From the NCBI GenBank assembly GCA_965237955.1, contig OZ250169.1:6144001-6208000 (forward strand): 64,000 nt of DNA, read 5' to 3'. This DNA is from Candidatus Marinacidobacterales bacterium. Its GTDB lineage: Bacteria > Acidobacteriota > Vicinamibacteria > Marinacidobacterales > SMYC01. The notes beneath the pieces were generated by a model. The model made no database searches. It saw nothing but the letters and a program-made list of their open reading frames with translations, and had not been told where the DNA came from. The position numbers and the translations under genes were made by a program. Shown here in pieces: positions 33,299 through 41,907 of the stretch (positions are counted from its first letter, which is position 1; each line of letters starts with the position of its first letter).

Positions 33299-33323
33299 AC
33301 CGCTACCTCAACCCCAAAAAACA

Positions 33324-33411
33324 AACGCAAAGGCGCAAGGACGCAAGGGCGCAAAGAACCCGAGTCGAGCGAGATGAATCGGCCCCCTTTGCGTCTTTGC
33401 GCCTTTGCGTT
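33324..33411. repeat. Octamer-based (RCGCAAAG) inverted-repeat element between convergent genes
   Basis: AACGCAAAGGCGCAAGGACGCAAGG vs CTTTGCGTCTTTGCGCCTTTGCGTT, 23/25 complementary. Confidence 0.8.
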
Positions 33412-33424
33412 AAATTACTTCCAG

Positions 33425-34642
33425 TCACTTGATTCCCGTTCTCTCGAAGACGACTTCCCTCCCGCCCGCCTTGATCGTGTAACCGGAGGCACCGAACCGT
33501 GCGTCCATGTGGGCTGCGAGCGCGGCTTCGAACTCGCGCGCGTCCTTGGACGTGTCCCACACGCTTCGCCAAATGAGCGAGTAGCCATCGCCGTGCTCGA
33601 GAACAGCGTAGCTGTCGCCGCCCCAACCGGCCGCGGCGGTGTTCGCCGTCGCGCTCGACGCTCCGTCACCGAGAAGCACGCGGATCAAGAGCTCGCCGAG
33701 GCGGCCTTCGAAATCGACGGTGCGGCCCCGTGCTTCCGGAAGCGTCACCTCGACCGGCTCGTCCGAGCCATCGAGATACTTCTCCGGGTGGAGCACCTGT
33801 TCCATCGAACGCGGGGGCGTTTGAAGCGAATCATTCAGAAGCGCGAAGCCACCTAGCTCGTGGACGGCCACCGCGAAATTGAGTCCTTGAAAATAGGGGG
33901 CCAAAAGCTGCTCCTGGACGATGGGCGGAGCACCCTGCAATGCGGGGAAGGCGAACATCTCCGCAACCTCTGAGCCCGACATGCCCTGGAACGCCTGGCC
34001 GAACTCGGGAGCGAGTGACACCATGTATTGCTTCATCACGAGAAACGCGTCACCTTCGATGAGAGAAAGGGCCGCGAGGTGACGGTCATCGAAATAGCTT
34101 TCGACCTGAAACTTGTCCCGAATCACCACGTGCTGATCCTGTACAGCGTGCCGGAGCTCGTGCGAAAGGACGATCTGGTTCATCAAGCCGAGAGTACGGC
34201 CCGAGGAGATCGCGTAGAGTCTTTTGACGCCGGGTCGCTCATCGTAGAAGCCGGCGATGTTCTCGTTGAGCACGCGTTCTCGAATCTCTCTGAGATCCTG
34301 GTGCTCGTCGAGAAAGCCGAAAACTCTGAGCGCACGTTCTTCTCGCTCCGCGAACTCCACCGGGTAATCTTCTTCAAACCAATCGCGAATGTATCGAGCG
34401 AGCTCTCCTCTCGACATGAAATCGATAGGTACTTTGGTGCGAAACGACAGCCCGCCAATCTCTTCGACACGCCGCGCGAGCTCGTCGGCCTCGACGGGAG
34501 GAAGCCCGAGCATCACCGCGAGCTGGTCCAGCTGATTCGCAATCTGGGCGTCGTCGACTTGGATCGCGTACGCGTGTTTCGATGACGCAACGAGCGTTAG
34601 CGCCGCCGCGGCGGCGAGAAGCGAGTGAGCGATCTGTTTCAT
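33425..34642 (-). CDS. Secreted putative zinc metallopeptidase (HExxH)
   Basis: Signal peptide; IAGFYD, LSHELRHAVQDQH, LSLIEGDA, PY..G..F, PP.S.EQVLHPEKY, GWGGD. Confidence 0.7.
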   Translation of the reverse strand: MKQIAHSLLAAAAALTLVASSKHAYAIQVDDAQIANQLDQLAVMLGLPPVEADELARRVEEIGGLSFRTKVPIDFMSRGELARYIRDWFEEDYPVEFAEREERALRVFGFLDEHQDLREIRERVLNENIAGFYDERPGVKRLYAISSGRTLGLMNQIVLSHELRHAVQDQHVVIRDKFQVESYFDDRHLAALSLIEGDAFLVMKQYMVSLAPEFGQAFQGMSGSEVAEMFAFPALQGAPPIVQEQLLAPYFQGLNFAVAVHELGGFALLNDSLQTPPRSMEQVLHPEKYLDGSDEPVEVTLPEARGRTVDFEGRLGELLIRVLLGDGASSATANTAAAGWGGDSYAVLEHGDGYSLIWRSVWDTSKDAREFEAALAAHMDARFGASGYTIKAGGREVVFERTGIK

Positions 34643-35447: not shown

Positions 35448-36053
35448 ATGATTGACATTGAAGGAGCCATCCTCGCCGGCGGCCAAAGTTCCCGGATGGG
35501 CCGGGACAAATCGGCGCTCGTTCTCGGCGGAGTGTCGGTGCTCGAGCGCGTCGGGGGCTCGATGGCCCCGCTCGTCGGCCGCATCCGCGTCATCGGCGAC
35601 CGGGTCACCGAGCCCAGGGGCTACGCGGTGCAACCCGATCTCAGGCCGGGACTCGGCCCGTTGTCGGGCATTCACGCCGCGCTCGCGACCGCCGAATCTT
35701 CGACGGTGCTCGTGGTCGCGTGCGACCTTCCGTTCGTCACTACGGAGCTCCTCGCCGGCATCATCGCGCTGTTGGAATACGGAACCGATGCCGTCGTGCC
35801 CCGAGTGTCCGGACGCGCGGTACCGGTGTGCGCTCTCTACCGCAGAGCTTGCCTCGAGCGTCTTCAAGCATGCCTCGATAATAGGGAGCTGAAAGCCCAG
35901 CAGTTCGTGGCGAGCCTCGCGACAACCTACGTGGACGAGGACGTCCTCGAGCGTATCAACTCCCCGAGGTCCCACAGGATCTGCTTGAAGAACATCAACA
36001 CCCCGGAGGATTTCGAACAAGCGCAAGCGATCGCTGCCGAAGAGCTCAAGTAG
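35448..36053 (+). CDS. mobA: Molybdenum cofactor guanylyltransferase MobA
   Basis: ILAGGQSSRMGRDK, GPLSGI, VACDLPF, NINTPED. Confidence 0.93.
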   Translation: MIDIEGAILAGGQSSRMGRDKSALVLGGVSVLERVGGSMAPLVGRIRVIGDRVTEPRGYAVQPDLRPGLGPLSGIHAALATAESSTVLVVACDLPFVTTELLAGIIALLEYGTDAVVPRVSGRAVPVCALYRRACLERLQACLDNRELKAQQFVASLATTYVDEDVLERINSPRSHRICLKNINTPEDFEQAQAIAAEELK

Positions 36054-36369
36054 CGTCGAGCACCGTTCCTTCGCTCGACGCCACGTAGCACGCGGCAGTG
36101 GCGTCACCGGTAACGTCGACGACGGTACGCCCCATATCGAGGATGCGCTCGACTCCGAGGACGAGTGCCAGCCCCTCGCCGGGGATGCCGAAGTGCAACA
36201 GCACGAGCACGATGATGGGGAGCGAACCGCTCGGAACACCTGCCGCCGCCACCGCCGTCAGCACCGAGAACGCGACGACCGAGAGCTGGTCGGCAACACC
36301 CATCGCCACGCCGAACACTTGGGCAAGAAAGAGCACGACCACGGTGACGAACAGCGCGGTGCCGTTCAT
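36046..36369 (-). pseudogene. C-terminal remnant of a dicarboxylate/amino acid:cation symporter (GltP/DAACS)
   Basis: MNGTALF (NMDGT-like), AAGVPSGSL, LALVLGVERILDMGRT..VTGDA; the upstream bulk of the gene is absent and the break abuts a repeat element. Confidence 0.82.
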
Positions 36370-36384
36370 GTCGGGGGCTTCTTC

Positions 36385-36558
36385 TCACCGAGGCGCAGAG
36401 CACGCAAAGGCAACGCAGAGAAAAGCAAAAAACGGAAAGTCGCGACGGCGAGAGAAGCGATCAGGTTGCAGGCGCTTCATATTCACGCCGTCGCAACCTC
36501 GCGACCCTACGTTTCTTCCCTCTGCGTTTCCTCTGCGTCCTTTGCGCCTCTGCGGTGA
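36385..36558. repeat. Octamer-based (RCGCAGAG/RCGCAAAG) inverted-repeat element, same family as 33324-33411
   Basis: TCACCGAGGCGCAGAGCACGCAAAGGCAACGCAGAG vs CTCTGCGTTTCCTCTGCGTCCTTTGCGCCTCTGCGGTGA. Confidence 0.8.
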
Positions 36559-36567
36559 TTTGTTTCT

Positions 36568-37089
36568 TTAAGGGAATTCTCGTTGACGCCGATCGTTCCC
36601 ACGTCCGCGGACTTGGCGCATCATTTCCCCGAGCCTCCTCTGAAGCTCGACCTCGAGGATGCGGTAGCGCGCTCGCTGGCGGATGTCGAGGTTGGCGTCG
36701 ATGGCCGCGTAGCGACTCCTCTCGTTGGCCGCAAAGTCGTCGCGTAGCGTGTCGAGCTCGCTCAAGAGCGGTTGCAGCTCGCTCTCCCCCGCTTGCTCAC
36801 GCTGTAGCGTCTGCCGCATCTGCCTCAGAACTTGCATGCGGTCGCGGCGATAACCGCGCCTCGTGTCCGATAGCTTCTTCTGCGCGACCACCATGGCGCC
36901 GAACTGCTCGTCGGTCAGGTCAAGCGAATCCTGAAGCTTGCTTAGGATGTAAGCCTCCATCATGCCTTCGACTTCCTGGCGATTCGGCTGAGGATTCCGC
37001 TCCCGATTCTGCTCGGTCGATCCCGTCGCCATAGCGAAGACGGGCAACAGCACAAACGCTAGCAGTAGTTTCTTGCTCAATATCTTCAT
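36568..37089 (-). CDS. Spy/CpxP-like periplasmic helical protein
   Basis: Signal peptide, LDLTDEQ motif, helical hairpin, LDIRQRARY; ATGA-coupled to the anti-sigma gene. Confidence 0.7.
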   Translation of the reverse strand: MKILSKKLLLAFVLLPVFAMATGSTEQNRERNPQPNRQEVEGMMEAYILSKLQDSLDLTDEQFGAMVVAQKKLSDTRRGYRRDRMQVLRQMRQTLQREQAGESELQPLLSELDTLRDDFAANERSRYAAIDANLDIRQRARYRILEVELQRRLGEMMRQVRGRGNDRRQREFP

Positions 37090-37619
37090 AGGCTGGACCT
37101 CATTGCTTCCGTCAGCCGCTCGACGAATCGCTGCCGCTCGCCCGGAGTCAGGCCGCCCGGAAACACGAAAGCGTCGAGCGTGAGCTCTTCGAAGGACGGA
37201 GAAGCGACCTCGTCTAACTCTTCGTCCATCGCGCCCGACAGCGCAAGCAAGAACTGGAACTCTTCGTCCTGTTCCAACGGTGGCAGCAGATCTTCCACCT
37301 CTGGCACTTCTACTGATGCAGGCGCGGTTCCGCTCCGGTCGAGGTTCATCCAATACACCGCGCTCACCGCGATGACGACCGCCGCCGCCGTCGCCAACCA
37401 CCGCGAGAAGTTCCGTTGCACCGGTGGCCGCGCGAGAGGCGCTGCGGTCACGACATCTTCATGGAGTATCGCCAACGTTTGCTCGAGCTCTTCGAGCTCC
37501 TGTCGACACTCGGAGCAGTTCTCGAGATGCTGGCGCCAGGGCGCATCGACGGGCGAGCCCTCGAGCACGTCAACGAAAACTTCCGGCGTGAGATGGTCTT
37601 GCTGGCGTTCGCTGGTCAT
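37086..37619 (-). CDS. Zinc-binding (zf-HC2) transmembrane anti-sigma factor
   Basis: HLENCSEC (HxxxCxxC) followed by one TM helix; coupled to the ECF sigma. Confidence 0.85.
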   Translation of the reverse strand: MTSERQQDHLTPEVFVDVLEGSPVDAPWRQHLENCSECRQELEELEQTLAILHEDVVTAAPLARPPVQRNFSRWLATAAAVVIAVSAVYWMNLDRSGTAPASVEVPEVEDLLPPLEQDEEFQFLLALSGAMDEELDEVASPSFEELTLDAFVFPGGLTPGERQRFVERLTEAMRSSL

Positions 37620-38185
37620 GATGGCGTTCCGTCGAATAGCTTACTCGACTCTGCCTCCAGATACTTTCGCAGATTCTTCAAAGCGAAGAAGAAGTTCGCC
37701 TTGGCGGTCCCAACGGGACAGTCCATGATATCCCCAATTTCCTTGTGGGTAAGCTCCTGATAGACGCGGAGCACAAGCGTCATTCGTTGTCGTTCGGGAA
37801 GCCGGGCGACGGCGGTGCGCACCGCCGCCGACACTTCTTTTCGACCGAGCCGCTCCATCGGGGACGGTCCCGGGTCCACGAGATCCGCCGGGAGCTCCTC
37901 CACCCGCCGCTTCCGCGACGACACCCAGTTCAGACATACGTTCACCGCGATCCGGTAGACCCAGGTCGAAAGGCTCGCCTCGCCCCGAAATCCCGAGAGC
38001 CCCCGGTACGCTCGAAGGAAGACTTCCTGAGCCAGGTCTTCCGCGTCGGCGCGATTCCCGGTATAGCGGTAGCAGAGCCCGTAGACGCGCCCGCGATGCG
38101 TTCGCACGAGGTCGTCGAACGTTTGCGTTTCGTCAGTCTCGTCCGGCGGCGCCACCACAAATTCCAGCTTCTCAGCTGCGCTCAC
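37616..38185 (-). CDS. ECF RNA polymerase sigma-70 factor
   Basis: DAEDLAQEVFLRAY, FRGEASLSTWVYRIAVN, LPERQR, EIGDIMDCPVGTAK. Confidence 0.95.
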   Translation of the reverse strand: MSAAEKLEFVVAPPDETDETQTFDDLVRTHRGRVYGLCYRYTGNRADAEDLAQEVFLRAYRGLSGFRGEASLSTWVYRIAVNVCLNWVSSRKRRVEELPADLVDPGPSPMERLGRKEVSAAVRTAVARLPERQRMTLVLRVYQELTHKEIGDIMDCPVGTAKANFFFALKNLRKYLEAESSKLFDGTPS

Positions 38186-38454: not shown

Positions 38455-39528
38455 ATGGCTGTCCGAAAGTCTCTCAAAAAGCCCGCGCCAAGAACCAAGA
38501 CGCGCGCCAAAGCTCCGGCACGCAAGAGACCGACCCAATCGAACGGCAAGCCCATCGGTTTGGATCTCGGCACGAGTACCGTCGTCGCCGCGCGGCAAAA
38601 CGGCCGCGGCGTTCGCGCGAACACCGAGCTCAACGCGTTCATCGAGCTGCCAAAGTCCCGCTTTACCGAGCAGATCCTCGACCAAAACAAGATCGACTTC
38701 GTACGCGACAACCGTCACCTCATCGTGTTCGGAAACGGCGCGTTCAAGTTCGCGAACATGTTCAACGCCGAGACCCGGCGGCCGATGCGCCACGGGCTCG
38801 TCAATGCCGGTGAGCCCCACGCGCAAAAACTTCTCGAGGCCATCGTCGAAAAACTCGTCGGCAAGCCGCAGTCGAAGGGCGAGCTTCTTTGCTTCAGCGT
38901 TCCCGGTCCGCCTCTGGGCTCGCCGTCGAGCCTCGTGTACCACGAAGCTTTGATGAAGCAGATGCTCGACAACATGGGCTTCGAAGCCAAGTCGATCAAC
39001 GAAGGGCTCGCGGTCGTGTTCTCCGAGCTCGAGAAGGAGAACTTTTCGGGCATCGGGATAAGCTTCGGAGGCGGGCTCACGAACGTGTGTCTCGCCTATC
39101 TTTCGGTTCCAGTGTTTACCTTTGCCGTGGACAAAGGCGGTGATGACGTCGACGAAGCGGTCGGCGAAGTGACCGGCGAGACGGCGACGCGCGTCAAAGC
39201 AATCAAAGAAGAGGGGCTCGACTTGAGCCGCAAGGCTCGCAGCAAAGTCGCCGGCGCACTCCAGATATACTACGACGATCTGATCGCGACCGTCGTCGAA
39301 GGTATCGGGGAGGCGTTTTCGCGCTCCGACCGCATTCCCAAGCTCGACAAACCGCTTCCGGTCGTCCTCGGTGGCGGCACGGCTCTACCGAAGGGTTTCG
39401 TCACCCGGTTCTCGAAAGCTCTCGAAGAAGAGAACCTGCCCATCGAGCTGGACGCCGTGCGCAGGGCCAACGAGCCTCTCACCGCGACGGCACGCGGAGC
39501 GCTTTTGGCCGCGTTGTACGAGAACTGA
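38455..39528 (+). CDS. Actin-fold (ASKHA) ATPase, volactin-like, paralog 1 with basic N-terminal tail
   Basis: Phosphate-1 GLDLGTS, ETRRPM.HG, connect-1 INEG, phosphate-2 GISFGGGLTNV, KGGD..D, adenosine VVLGGGT, connect-2 ATARGAL. Confidence 0.85.
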   Translation: MAVRKSLKKPAPRTKTRAKAPARKRPTQSNGKPIGLDLGTSTVVAARQNGRGVRANTELNAFIELPKSRFTEQILDQNKIDFVRDNRHLIVFGNGAFKFANMFNAETRRPMRHGLVNAGEPHAQKLLEAIVEKLVGKPQSKGELLCFSVPGPPLGSPSSLVYHEALMKQMLDNMGFEAKSINEGLAVVFSELEKENFSGIGISFGGGLTNVCLAYLSVPVFTFAVDKGGDDVDEAVGEVTGETATRVKAIKEEGLDLSRKARSKVAGALQIYYDDLIATVVEGIGEAFSRSDRIPKLDKPLPVVLGGGTALPKGFVTRFSKALEEENLPIELDAVRRANEPLTATARGALLAALYEN

Positions 39529-39547
39529 TTCGAAGAAGGAGACCCCC

Positions 39548-40558
39548 ATGGAAAACATGGTAGCGAGCGGCGAAGGCCGTATCGGGCTAGACGTCGGCAC
39601 GAGCAAGATCATGTCGATACGCCAAAGCGGCAACCAGCTAAAGGCATCCGCCGAGATCAACGCGTTTCTGCCGCTCCCCTATTCCCGCATCACCGAGAAC
39701 ATCCTTCTGCAAAACAAAGTCCACTACTACCAGAACAACGGGCAATTCTTCGTCTACGGCAACAACGCCGAAAAGTTCGCAGGGCTCTTCAACGCGGAGA
39801 CACGGCGACCCATGAGTGGCGGCCTCATCAACCCGGACGAGCCCGCCGCGCTCACGCTCATCAAGGTCATCATCCAGGGATTGGTGAAAAAGCCAAAGGC
39901 GAAAGACGATCTCGTGTGCTACTCGGTTCCAGGCGCTCCAGCGGACGCACCGAACAATCTGATCTACCACGAGCAGCTTCTGAAGGGCTATCTGAGCGAG
40001 CTCGGGTACCAATCGAAGAGCGTGAACGAAGGCCAGGCCATTATTTTCTCCGAGCTCGAAAAGGAGAATTTCACCGGTATCGGGATTTCCGTGGGCGGCG
40101 GAATGTGCAATGCATGCCTCGCGTACCTTTCGGTCCCGGTGGTGTCGTTCTCGACGTCCAAGGCGGGAGACTTCATCGACAAGAGCGTGGGATCGGTAAC
40201 CGGTGAGTCCGCGACCCGGGTGAAGATGATCAAGGAGCAGTCGCTCGACCTCGCACACTCTCCTAAAGACAAGGTAGAAGAAGCGCTCCATATCTACTAC
40301 GATGAGGTCATCGCCACGCTCATCAGCACTCTCAACGAAGCGGTGAGCAAGACTTCGACGGAGTCGCACCAATTGGACAAACCCCTGCCCGTCGTTCTCG
40401 CCGGCGGCACGGCACAGCCGAAGGGCTTTCGTGATCGCTTCGAGAAAGCTCTTTACGAGTCGAGTTGCCCGGTGCCCATCTCCGAGGTGAGGCTCTCACC
40501 GAACCCGACACAGGCCACCGCGCGCGGCGCATTCATCGCGGCGGTGTACGACAGCTAA
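39548..40558 (+). CDS. Actin-fold (ASKHA) ATPase, volactin-like, paralog 2
   Basis: GLDVGTS, ETRRPM.GG, VNEG, GISVGGGMCNA, KAGDFID, VVLAGGT, ATARGAF; AAGGAG RBS; co-linear with paralog 1. Confidence 0.85.
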   Translation: MENMVASGEGRIGLDVGTSKIMSIRQSGNQLKASAEINAFLPLPYSRITENILLQNKVHYYQNNGQFFVYGNNAEKFAGLFNAETRRPMSGGLINPDEPAALTLIKVIIQGLVKKPKAKDDLVCYSVPGAPADAPNNLIYHEQLLKGYLSELGYQSKSVNEGQAIIFSELEKENFTGIGISVGGGMCNACLAYLSVPVVSFSTSKAGDFIDKSVGSVTGESATRVKMIKEQSLDLAHSPKDKVEEALHIYYDEVIATLISTLNEAVSKTSTESHQLDKPLPVVLAGGTAQPKGFRDRFEKALYESSCPVPISEVRLSPNPTQATARGAFIAAVYDS

Positions 40559-40596: not shown

Positions 40597-41907
40597 ATGC
40601 TGACGTCTCGTCCACCAACTGCCCCTCCCTCGCTTCCTCATAAACGACTTCGCGCGAGCCTCGACTTTCTTTCGTCGAGAATTCCCGATCCGGTCAACAA
40701 GCTCTGGTTCATCAACCGCACGCTCGAGGTCTTCGACGAGAAACCGCAGGGGGTCAAGAGGCTCCCGATCGTGCGCGGTATCGTGTTCCATTACGTCGCG
40801 CTCGAATCACTCGGCGAGCTCGTTTGGAGCCCGAAGCCAACGACGGTCGCTCTTCCCCGAGGACCGCTTTTGGCGCTCTATCGACTTCGTCACGTGCTCC
40901 TCGTGGTGACGTTTCTCGCCGTCGGCTTCGGAGGCTACCGCATCGGGCTCGTCGGCTATGAAGCCGCACAATCAGGCGCCGACTGGCTGTTTGCTCAGCT
41001 GGTACCGGTGCCCGCGGCCGCATCCACGACGGCGCTCGAAAGCTATCCCGACAGGCTTACGGTGCCGCCCACAAACGTGTGGCTGGTCTCGAACGTAGGT
41101 GAGGTCGAGCTCTGGAGTAACGGCCTGCGCGTCGATACCAGCTTCGAGACACCGGGCAACCCGCGGAGCTTTTTCGCGTTTCCGAAAGACGGCTCGCCGC
41201 CGGTCCCTCTCGGAGGCGCACCCATCGGAATCGTGTACCACGCGAGCCAAAGCGACATGGCGCCGTTCGCGCAACAGTTCAATCGCAACATCCTGACGAC
41301 GACGCGCGATCTCGTCGGGTGGCTCAGCCGTCGTGAAATCTACAACTACATGATCGACCGCTTCGGCCAGGTCTACCGCATCGTCTCCGACAAAGGGGTC
41401 GCGGTCCATGCCGGGGTCTCGATCTGGTCGGACGACGATTACTACCATCTGAACTTGAACGAGAGCTTCATCGGCGTCGCGTTCGAAAGCCAATGGAGCT
41501 CTGGTCGGGACATCATTACGCCCGCACAGGTCCAGGCTGCGCTCAACCTCACCGACGTCCTGCGAGCGCGCTATCGGATCGCGGACGCCAACTGTGTCCC
41601 TCACGGCCTCGTCTCGGTGAACGCCGCGAAAAAGCTCGTCGGCTACCACGCCGACTGGGCGAAGAACTTCCCCTTCGGCGCTCTCGGGTTGGACGACAAG
41701 TATGAGCTCGCTCCGGCGAGCATGACCGCGTTCGGGTTCAGCTACGACGAGGATCTCGTGAGCCGCCTCGGTGGCGAGCTTTGGCCCGGCGTTGGCTTCG
41801 CCGAGCAAGAGGTGCGGACCCGCGCCCGAGAAGAGGGCGTCACGCCCGAACTCTTTCGGGCACGGATGCACCAGCGTTATCTTCAGAACGTCGCCCTCGC
41901 GAAGTAG
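40597..41907 (+). CDS. Single-pass membrane N-acetylmuramoyl-L-alanine amidase (Amidase_2/PGRP fold)
   Basis: About 100-aa N-terminal region, TM VLLVVTFLAVGFGGY, then GIVYHAS, YNYMIDRFGQVYRIV, AVHAG, N..FIGVAFE, TPAQ, VPHG, HAD. Confidence 0.8.
   Translation: MLTSRPPTAPPSLPHKRLRASLDFLSSRIPDPVNKLWFINRTLEVFDEKPQGVKRLPIVRGIVFHYVALESLGELVWSPKPTTVALPRGPLLALYRLRHVLLVVTFLAVGFGGYRIGLVGYEAAQSGADWLFAQLVPVPAAASTTALESYPDRLTVPPTNVWLVSNVGEVELWSNGLRVDTSFETPGNPRSFFAFPKDGSPPVPLGGAPIGIVYHASQSDMAPFAQQFNRNILTTTRDLVGWLSRREIYNYMIDRFGQVYRIVSDKGVAVHAGVSIWSDDDYYHLNLNESFIGVAFESQWSSGRDIITPAQVQAALNLTDVLRARYRIADANCVPHGLVSVNAAKKLVGYHADWAKNFPFGALGLDDKYELAPASMTAFGFSYDEDLVSRLGGELWPGVGFAEQEVRTRAREEGVTPELFRARMHQRYLQNVALAK

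What the first reader, a model, noticed from the sequence alone, without database searches (positions are those of the whole stretch)
38455..40558. Tandem pair of volactin-like actins in a bacterium
Seen: two adjacent, co-linear paralogs 19 nt apart, each with all five actin-fold motifs (DxGTS, NEG, GIS.GGG, GGT, TARGA). Phosphate-2 has Ser where MreB/FtsA/DnaK have Asp. Established: volactin is an actin homolog involved in disk-shape morphogenesis in Haloferax. Inference: the blocks GLD(V/L)GT, FAN.FN.ETRRPM..G, INEG..V.FSEL...NF.G.GIS.G.G..N.CLAY..VPV and AL.IYY match my recollection of volactin much better than MreB, FtsA, ParM or MamK. Two diverged, intact copies suggest a hetero-filament or a filament plus nucleator (analogous to actin/Arp). 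I know of no characterised bacterial volactin pair.
Basis: partly seen in the sequence, partly recalled or inferred. Interest (0 to 1): 0.88.

Follow-up and report, generated by a model that had tools for sequence, protein, structure and literature searches.

The report
Twin actins beside a wall amidase
Two old, diverged copies of a volactin/Mad28-type bacterial actin sit in front of a predicted membrane-anchored cell-wall amidase; they likely build one filament in which the copy with a positively charged tail would grip DNA or membrane, which would give these uncultured Acidobacteriota an undescribed way to position wall remodelling.

Summary
Observation confirmed. Both ORFs are full-length Pfam Volactin members (287 and 275 bits, cut-off 35), 55% identical and 19 nt apart, with predicted actin folds closest to MamK. 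They are not MreB, MamK, FtsA or salactin. The family does have a characterised bacterial member: Mad28 of magnetotactic bacteria belongs to it and has the same phosphate-2 Ser.

The pair comes from one old duplication. It is present in 19 of 55 genomes of the order, and both copies are under purifying selection (dN/dS 0.04–0.11).

It is adjacent in 65 of 70 related loci and tracks the actin across the phylum sample.

Copy A alone has a disordered basic tail (33 of 33 complete homologues), a His/Asp pair and a weaker ribosome site. Related single-copy genes are HU–actin fusions with a strong internal start, giving the same tailed-plus-bare design.

Best model (inferred): a co-polymer of bulk B and tethering A, docked on the amidase. 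Binding was not tested. This scan had already noted the actin–amidase link and Mad28 pairs on other DNA.

The parts
38455..39528 (+). Actin A, Volactin/Mad28 family (PF25216), 357 aa; all five actin motifs intact
   Evidence: A clade 100/100 in the careful tree
38455..38553 (+). Basic low-complexity N-terminal tail of A (residues 1-33, 12 K/R, no D/E), predicted disordered; candidate DNA or anionic-surface tether
   Evidence: pLDDT 52-58 and no secondary structure; net +3 to +12 in 33 of 33 complete A homologues, -3 to +1 in 45 B homologues; pI 12
38791..38793 (+). His113 of A (RPMRHG), A-specific
   Evidence: His with Asp231 in 40 of 40 scoreable A-type proteins
39145..39147 (+). Asp231 of A (GGDDVD), replacing an aromatic residue conserved in the family
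   Evidence: Asp in 40 of 40 A and 0 of 47 B; Asp/Glu in 3 of 271 other members
39536..39541 (+). Strong Shine-Dalgarno site (AAGGAG) of B
   Evidence: predicted pairing stronger than at A's start in 12 of 13 genomes
39548..40558 (+). Actin B, Volactin/Mad28 family, 336 aa, short neutral N-terminus; all motifs intact
   Evidence: B clade 100/100
40597..41907 (+). Predicted membrane-anchored Amidase_2 (N-acetylmuramoyl-L-alanine amidase-like) partner, 436 aa
   Evidence: PF01510 53.8 bits, cut-off 26; H215, Y249, H336, D353 invariant in 79 of 79 aligned sequences; adjacent in 65 of 70 loci
40681..40716 (+). Conserved, predicted cytoplasmic IxDPVxKLx(F/Y) helix motif of the amidase; candidate docking site for the actin
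   Evidence: P32 in 75 of 79 and L36 in 74 of 79; alignment A2, whose rows were picked with this motif
40894..40953 (+). Predicted single transmembrane segment of the amidase (about residues 100-119)
   Evidence: highest 19-residue Kyte-Doolittle mean 1.88, preceded by basic residues

Best explanation
A and B are two conserved Volactin/Mad28-family actins that likely co-assemble into one ATP-dependent filament, with bare B predicted to be the bulk subunit and A a likely scarcer subunit whose disordered basic tail would bind a polyanion (most likely the chromosome), and the filament likely docks on the neighbouring membrane-anchored amidase to position local peptidoglycan remodelling. Shown: family, fold, one old duplication, purifying selection on both copies, A-only tail, A-only His113/Asp231, unequal ribosome sites, tight linkage to the amidase. 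From known family members: polymerisation (Mad28 in vitro and in vivo; volactin in vivo). Inferred and untested: co-assembly (about 0.55), B in excess over A, DNA as the tail's ligand (about 0.45), direct actin-amidase binding (about 0.6), amidase activity. The system is accessory: the genome has a canonical mreB elsewhere, and the locus is missing or decayed in many relatives.
For: Family and fold. Mad28, a family member, forms filaments with ATP-gamma-S and cross-interacts with another actin, MamK (PMC10653835). A and B are sister clades (97/92), each 100/100, with matching f1/f2 splits apart from one B row, L018. Order A-B-amidase in 19 of 55 genomes of the order. dN/dS 0.043-0.082 (A) and 0.039-0.110 (B) in 9 genome pairs. 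Amidase in 9 of 301 phylum genomes, all among the 10 with a full-length actin; adjacent in 65 of 70 loci, in two gene orders (50 and 15). Parallel design in single-copy relatives: 15 HU-actin fusions all keep GG-x(1-3)-M before the actin core. In 6 of 6 such genomic loci the inner start has a strong site (-9.3 to -9.5 kcal/mol) and the HU start a weak one (-0.1 to -3.7); B is likewise stronger than A in 12 of 13 genomes. Fused double-domain family members exist (P0131, P0152). RNA-library contigs span the A-B and B-amidase junctions (weak).
Against: No interaction of any kind was measured or modelled. Most relatives manage with one bare copy and no basic tail (Bryobacteraceae, Terriglobia), and two loci in the Blastocatellia branch lack HU (L165, L166), so a DNA tether is not needed for the module. 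Polybasic tails also bind anionic lipids, and Mad28's N-terminal region, which holds a predicted amphipathic helix, is needed for its filaments (PMC12713370). Shine-Dalgarno strength is a rough guide to protein level, and first genes of operons often have weaker sites. The His/Asp pair and the tail each reflect one ancestral event, so their counts are not independent. The amidase has Ala/Ser/Cys where AmiD has the first Glu of its GIELE motif, so it may be a binder rather than a cutter. The careful tree does not resolve the amidase-linked actins as one clade (the quick tree gave SH-aLRT 95).
Confidence: 0.38

Rival explanations
1. Membrane-tether version: A and B co-assemble, but A's basic tail binds anionic phospholipids rather than DNA, holding the filament at the membrane to steer the amidase for cell shape, as Mad28 follows membrane curvature.
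For: Mad28 localises by curvature and its N-terminal region is needed for filaments (PMC12713370). Volactin filaments anchor at the membrane by their tips and affect shape (PMC10869688). Class A PBP genes lie near 3 of 10 Desulfobacterota family loci.
Against: A's tail is predicted coil and has no aromatic residues; its hydrophobic moment (0.52) is below that of two of three Mad28-clade N-termini tested (0.79, 0.76, 0.54). The amidase already offers a membrane anchor. A related branch of amidase-linked actins carries a true DNA-binding fold (HU) at the same position.
Confidence: 0.24
2. Two separate homopolymers: after duplication A and B split the ancestral jobs and form independent filaments with different partners, only one of them working with the amidase.
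For: Both keep full nucleotide motifs and equal constraint. About 30 positions are fixed differently between the clades. Single-copy relatives show that one subunit type is enough.
Against: No intact genome with only one of the two copies was found in the order; the losses seen leave only fragments. Positions typical of amidase-linked single actins are kept by both copies. The nested HU/bare arrangement would make two isoforms with identical polymer surfaces.
Confidence: 0.22
3. Filament plus nucleator or cap: A does not enter the filament body but seeds or caps B filaments where its tail is bound.
For: Weaker start site for A. A-only His113/Asp231, which by alignment lie near the nucleotide cleft (the match to actin's His73/Asp184 region is recalled, not tested). 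Fused family members with one degenerate domain.
Against: A is not degenerate: all motifs intact, dN/dS like B, mean identity to single-copy relatives the same as B (46% vs 47%).
Confidence: 0.1
4. Non-polymerising A-B ATPase switch that regulates the amidase across the membrane.
For: Very tight amidase linkage. In 2 Mad28-clade loci the gene order is amidase, small ORF, MinD/ParA-like ORF, actin (L199, L203), which looks like a signalling module.
Against: Closest solved folds are filament formers (MamK, BeeR, MreB); both studied family members polymerise.
Confidence: 0.06

Closest known systems
Mad28 of deep-branching magnetotactic bacteria (PMC10653835, PMC12713370, bioRxiv 10.1101/2025.02.24.639979)
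   Same: Same Pfam family; 46.6% (A) and 44.8% (B) identity to a Mad28-position protein; same SxGxG phosphate-2 and xExx connect-1 signature; multiple divergent copies reported.
   Different: No magnetosome context: no MamK over cut-off in this genome and no mad genes next door. Separate branch in both trees. No amphipathic N-terminal extension. Partner gene is an amidase.
Volactin VolA (HVO_2015) of Haloferax volcanii (PMC10869688)
   Same: Same Pfam family (H. volcanii control genome scores over cut-off); haloarchaeal members are 37% identical to B and 39-43% to A over the full length.
   Different: Archaeal, single bare copy in the three loci seen, reported near-essential, no amidase neighbour; separate branch. 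HVO_2015 itself was not retrieved.
MamK (PDB 5ljv) and BeeR (8r2n)
   Same: Closest solved folds, Z 29.4 and 28.4; catalytic Glu position aligned.
   Different: 18-19% identity; Asp rather than Ser in phosphate-2; far below the MamK cut-off.
Cytoskeleton-plus-autolysin systems: MreBH with LytE in Bacillus subtilis (recalled), MreB with RodZ (PDB 2wus), bactofilin with LmdC
   Same: Works like: a cytoplasmic polymer positioning a wall enzyme or binding a bitopic membrane protein.
   Different: Different actin family and enzyme class; here the hydrolase itself carries the conserved cytoplasmic motif, and the actin is a conserved pair.
Two-subunit prokaryotic filaments such as BtubA/BtubB (recalled) and MamK with Mad28 cross-interaction (PMC10653835)
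   Same: Two related subunits encoded or acting together.
   Different: BtubAB are tubulins; MamK and Mad28 are about 16% identical and from different families, whereas A and B are 55% identical sisters.

Membership tests
Volactin family (PF25216) | Full-length profile score over the curated cut-off | tested here: met
   287.2 and 274.8 bits vs 35; positions 3-321 of 321
Volactin family (PF25216) | Groups with haloarchaeal members apart from MreB and MamK | tested here: met
   branch separating the family from MreB/MamK 98/98, SH-aLRT 100
Volactin family (PF25216) | Actin fold with intact nucleotide motifs | tested here: met
Volactin (functional, as in H. volcanii) | Dynamic, tip-anchored filaments that affect cell shape | not testable with these tools
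   needs live imaging and mutants
Mad28 (magnetosome protein) | Ser in phosphate-2 (SxGxG) and xExx in connect-1 | tested here: met
   signature from PMC10653835; GISFGGG / GISVGGG and NEG
Mad28 (magnetosome protein) | Encoded in a magnetosome gene cluster of a mamK-bearing genome | tested here: not met
   best MamK score in the genome 69.7 bits vs 400; neighbours are the amidase and unrelated genes
Mad28 (magnetosome protein) | Falls inside the Mad28 branch; helical N-terminal extension | tested here: not met
   separate branches; A tail predicted coil, B has none
MreB | Family score, Asp in phosphate-2 | tested here: not met
   19.6 / 16.7 vs 27; Ser instead of Asp; canonical mreB elsewhere, 486.7 bits
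MamK | NF040964 over cut-off | tested here: not met
   27.3 / 34.4 vs 400
Salactin | PF25229 / NF053533 over cut-off | tested here: not met
   16.1 / 20.8 vs 27.1; 20.7 / 26.1 vs 400
FtsA, ParM, EutJ, PilM, sugar kinases | Profile match | tested here: not met
   no such family listed at E up to 1 in Pfam or NCBIfam except BcrAD_BadFG at E 0.08 for B; FtsA and EutJ chains rank below MamK and MreB in profile and fold searches
Filament plus Arp-like nucleator | One copy with a degenerate nucleotide site or relaxed constraint | tested here: not met
   motifs intact in both; dN/dS alike
Hetero-filament | A and B co-assemble | not tested
   no complex model was obtained; needs biochemistry
Amidase_2 zinc amidase (partner) | His, His, Asp zinc-ligand pattern | tested here: met
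   H215, H336, D353 invariant in 79 of 79; their role as zinc ligands is assigned from recalled AmpD/T7 motifs
Amidase_2 zinc amidase (partner) | Catalytic Glu of AmpD/AmiD type, or Tyr of T7 lysozyme/PGRP type | tested here: inconclusive
   position 295 is Ser 30, Ala 28, Cys 21; Y249 and E297 are invariant; catalytic roles recalled

The most novel reading that the evidence does not exclude
A widespread, undescribed bacterial actin system couples the nucleoid to wall cleavage. Volactin/Mad28-type filaments dock on a membrane amidase and grip DNA through a minority subunit, which evolved twice: by duplication plus a histone-like basic tail here, and by an HU fusion with a nested second start in Blastocatellia. 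Magnetosome Mad28 and archaeal volactin would be offshoots of this family.
Probability: 0.25. Interest if true: 0.85.

Novelty: new variant of a known kind. Interest (0 to 1): 0.58.

Why it matters
It ties two separately studied actins, archaeal volactin and magnetosome Mad28, into one family and shows a large non-magnetotactic bacterial branch linked to a wall amidase. The pair is a natural experiment in how one actin splits into two subunits, a step central to actin/Arp evolution, and it can be tested with three small soluble proteins. The HU fusion with an inner start gives a second, independent test of the tethered-plus-bare idea. The score is held down because paired paralogs and the amidase link were already noted by this scan, the locus is dispensable, and no binding is shown.

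Tried and rejected
Complex prediction (B with amidase residues 9-98) was not available, so there is no verdict either way. A-B was not modelled.

Idea that B has a special NEGQ motif: rejected; Gln occurs in only 18 of 49 B-type proteins.

Which copy kept the amidase-linked surface: undecided; both keep the typical positions.

Atlas search with the amidase N-terminus gave no usable hit. The promoter/terminator scan gave nothing above chance.

The BW-1 Mad28 protein itself was not retrieved: no fetched protein starts exactly as the published primer predicts, so the identification rests on clade, C-terminus, signature and gene context. HVO_2015 was not retrieved either; the three haloarchaeal proteins are family members whose orthology to it was not tested.

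RNA evidence is contigs only, with no silent control stretch, so it cannot show level, strand or a single transcript; uncovered parts show nothing. RNA runs held small shares of the words, so I name no habitat.

The His113-Asp231 distance could not be measured because no model coordinates were returned. Virus contig collections were not scanned.

Rows left out of analyses: near-duplicate and many Bryobacteraceae rows were thinned from the trees (106 rows, 50); dN/dS used only 14 genomes with both copies intact; frameshifted loci were not used.

Pseudogene or assembly-artefact readings are rejected. A magnetosome role is rejected.

Full report
Observation. The window holds two co-linear ORFs, A (38455-39528, 357 aa) and B (39548-40558, 336 aa), 19 nt apart, followed after 38 nt by a 436-aa ORF (40597-41907). 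They are 55% identical over 325 residues. Both match Pfam Volactin over the whole profile (287.2 and 274.8 bits, cut-off 35); MreB, Salactin and MamK profiles stay under their cut-offs. AlphaFold gives confident models (pLDDT 93.6 for B, 91.5 for A). B's closest solved folds are MamK (Z 29.4, rmsd 2.7 A, 294 aligned), BeeR (28.4) and MreB (about 26). The genome has only these two family members and a canonical mreB elsewhere. The nearest named relatives are labelled Vicinamibacteria and Candidatus Marinacidobacterales, Acidobacteriota.

The family includes Mad28. Earlier scan notes gave this lead, and I tested it. A Desulfobacterota genome with a true MamK (482 bits, cut-off 400) carries a family gene behind a run of coiled-coil genes and a HEAT-repeat gene, which fits the Mad20-26 features described for RS-1. 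That protein is 46.6% identical to A and 44.8% to B, and all 120 listed relatives carry PF25216. The published BW-1 mad28 primers encode the ends MADEKEL and AMTEAE; 18 of 121 proteins of this clade end in AMTEAE, some start MADEKE or MADEKD, and none matches the start exactly. Awal et al. give SxGxG as the Mad28 phosphate-2 signature and report filaments with ATP-gamma-S and multiple divergent copies (PMC10653835). Haloarchaeal members are 37% identical to B. In both trees the family is apart from MreB and MamK; Mad28, haloarchaeal proteins and the window's pair lie on separate branches.

The pair is old and maintained. Of 55 genomes in the order, 21 score over the cut-off and 19 have two adjacent copies; none of 28 genomes in family f3 has a match. 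Five of the 19 show frameshifts or stops, likely assembly errors (inferred). In a phylum sample of 301 genomes, 10 have a full-length member and only this genome has two. A and B each form a 100/100 clade and are sisters (97/92), so one duplication predates families f1 and f2. dN/dS is 0.043-0.082 for A and 0.039-0.110 for B in 9 non-independent genome pairs drawn from 14 intact loci. Four relatives keep only fragments (G005, G012, G018, G033), so the locus is dispensable. Pairing is not unique to this order: 4 of 71 Mad28-clade metagenome loci hold two copies 46-56% identical (two of the four are near-identical), and two proteins fuse a degenerate and an intact domain.

The third gene. The downstream ORF is an Amidase_2 protein with a predicted single membrane segment. 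It is the only broadly conserved neighbour. It is adjacent in 65 of 70 genome loci found with B, 50 upstream and 15 downstream; three misses are at contig edges and two are real within the stretch held. In the phylum sample it occurs in 9 of 301 genomes, all among the 10 with the actin; in the order in 20 of 55, namely the 19 with the pair plus one remnant. It also lies within about 4.5 kb of 4 of 71 Mad28-clade loci. H215, Y249, H336 and D353 are invariant in 79 aligned sequences, and a short N-terminal motif (P32 in 75, L36 in 74) is kept ahead of the membrane segment. The position of AmiD's first GIELE Glu is Ala, Ser or Cys, so activity is unproven. Kin are not independent, but the link survives a change of gene order and spans phyla.

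How A differs from B. All 33 complete A homologues have a 19-37 residue tail of net charge +3 to +12; 45 B homologues range from -3 to +1; two A rows were truncated and not counted. The tail is predicted disordered. A has His113 with Asp231 in 40 of 40 scoreable cases; no B (0 of 47) and only 3 of 271 other members have an acid there, one of them also with the His. By alignment these lie beside the nucleotide cleft; the likeness to actin's His73 region is recalled, and PMC11889246 supports only that His73 affects phosphate release in actin. B's ribosome site is predicted stronger than A's in 12 of 13 genomes scored (of 15 given). Neither copy is degenerate.

A parallel case. Fourteen of the 120 listed homologues and one representative are HU-actin fusions; all 15 keep GG-x(1-3)-M just before the actin core. 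In six genomic loci (four titled Blastocatellia, two unnamed) this is GGAGG plus ATG, with a strong predicted site, while the HU start is weak. One gene would thus give a scarce DNA-binding form and an abundant bare form. The window's pair reaches the same design with two genes. Two loci of that branch lack the HU part, and most other relatives have a single bare copy.

Mechanism. I commit to a co-polymer of bulk B and tethering A, docked on the amidase's cytoplasmic motif, with DNA as the likeliest ligand of the tail (0.38 overall). Rivals are a membrane-binding tail (0.24), two separate filaments (0.22), a cap or nucleator (0.10) and a non-polymerising switch (0.06). Polymerisation is carried over from Mad28 and volactin; co-assembly, stoichiometry, tail ligand, docking and enzyme activity are inferred. 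RNA-library contigs with 0-2 differences span the A-B junction (one run) and the B-amidase junction (two runs of other studies), a weak hint of expression only.

Literature seen. PMC10869688: passages, supplement passages and part 4 of supplement 2. PMC10653835: passages, supplement rows and part 3. PMC12713370: parts 1-2 of 7, passages and supplement passages. bioRxiv 10.1101/2025.02.24.639979, PMC10746226 and PMC11889246: passages only. Searches: volactin (17 papers, 14 listed), Mad28 (45, 39 listed), actin-like + amidase + Acidobacteri + cytoskelet (1 review, listing only), Marinacidobacterales (0), mad28 copy names, archaeal actin terms. No listed paper appears in both the volactin and Mad28 listings, and none by title or abstract start describes this pair or the amidase link. 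The library lacks most subscription papers. The alignment figures in these supplements are pictures, and the preprint's supplements are closed; they could hold non-magnetotactic homologues. MreBH-LytE, BtubAB and the catalytic roles of amidase residues are recalled.

Verdict. Real, conserved and correctly assigned to the volactin family. It is a new variant of a known kind: a two-subunit, amidase-linked branch of the Volactin/Mad28 actins. The scan had noted the amidase link and tandem Mad28 pairs on other DNA. New here are the dated duplication, the A-only tail and His/Asp pair, and the nested HU parallel. Interest 0.58.

Noticed in passing
L029, L031, L032, L033, L161, L162; proteins P0062, P0083, P0103, P0122: HU-actin fusion genes with a conserved internal GGAGG + ATG, predicted to give a long DNA-binding and a short bare isoform; worth a study of its own.
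   Followed up: partly
L097:4929-5969, L098:4995-6011 (LR745208.1, LR756511.1): Two huge uncultured phages (485 and 595 kb) encode full-length family members, 31-32% identical to B; one Atlas cluster of the family is mostly Uroviricota where taxa are known.
   Followed up: no
P0131, P0152: Proteins with two fused Volactin domains; the first looks degenerate (Asn for the phosphate-1 Asp in P0131).
   Followed up: partly
P0175, P0179, P0138, P0141, P0144, P0148, P0180, P0195: Family members fused to ParB-HTH (weak), ParA-like/Wzz, zinc-ribbon or receiver domains, and two carrying inteins.
   Followed up: no
L199:1232-5031, L203:2067-6179, L193: Amidase homologue upstream of a small ORF, a MinD/ParA-like ORF (label from its GKT motif, no family scan) and a Mad28-clade actin.
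   Followed up: partly
L151, L153, L155: Class A PBP (transglycosylase-transpeptidase) genes lie near 3 of 10 Desulfobacterota family loci.
   Followed up: no
L148 (G722), L149, L150, L153: Proteins over 60% identical to the Mad28-position protein beside an HrpA-like helicase, without mad genes nearby; G722 has no MamK over cut-off: likely non-magnetosome Mad28 relatives.
   Followed up: partly
L096 (Halogeometricum plasmid pHBOR01): The haloarchaeal family gene lies within 6 kb of rdfA and an archaeal SMC-related gene, known shape determinants.
   Followed up: no
window 36568-38185 (-): Divergent ECF-sigma-like, anti-sigma-like and Spy/CpxP-like genes (labels by eye, no scan), partly or fully syntenic with the pair in L022-L025 and L027 but not in L026 or L028.
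   Followed up: no
window 36046-36570 and about 33300-33430: A C-terminal fragment of a transporter-like gene ends at a palindromic REP-like element (CGCAGAG...CTCTGCG); a similar element seems to lie near 33400. Seen by eye only.
   Followed up: no
L171, L172, L173, L174 (G018, G012, G005, G033): Deletion remnants of the three-gene locus in four relatives, three of them in one genus.
   Followed up: partly
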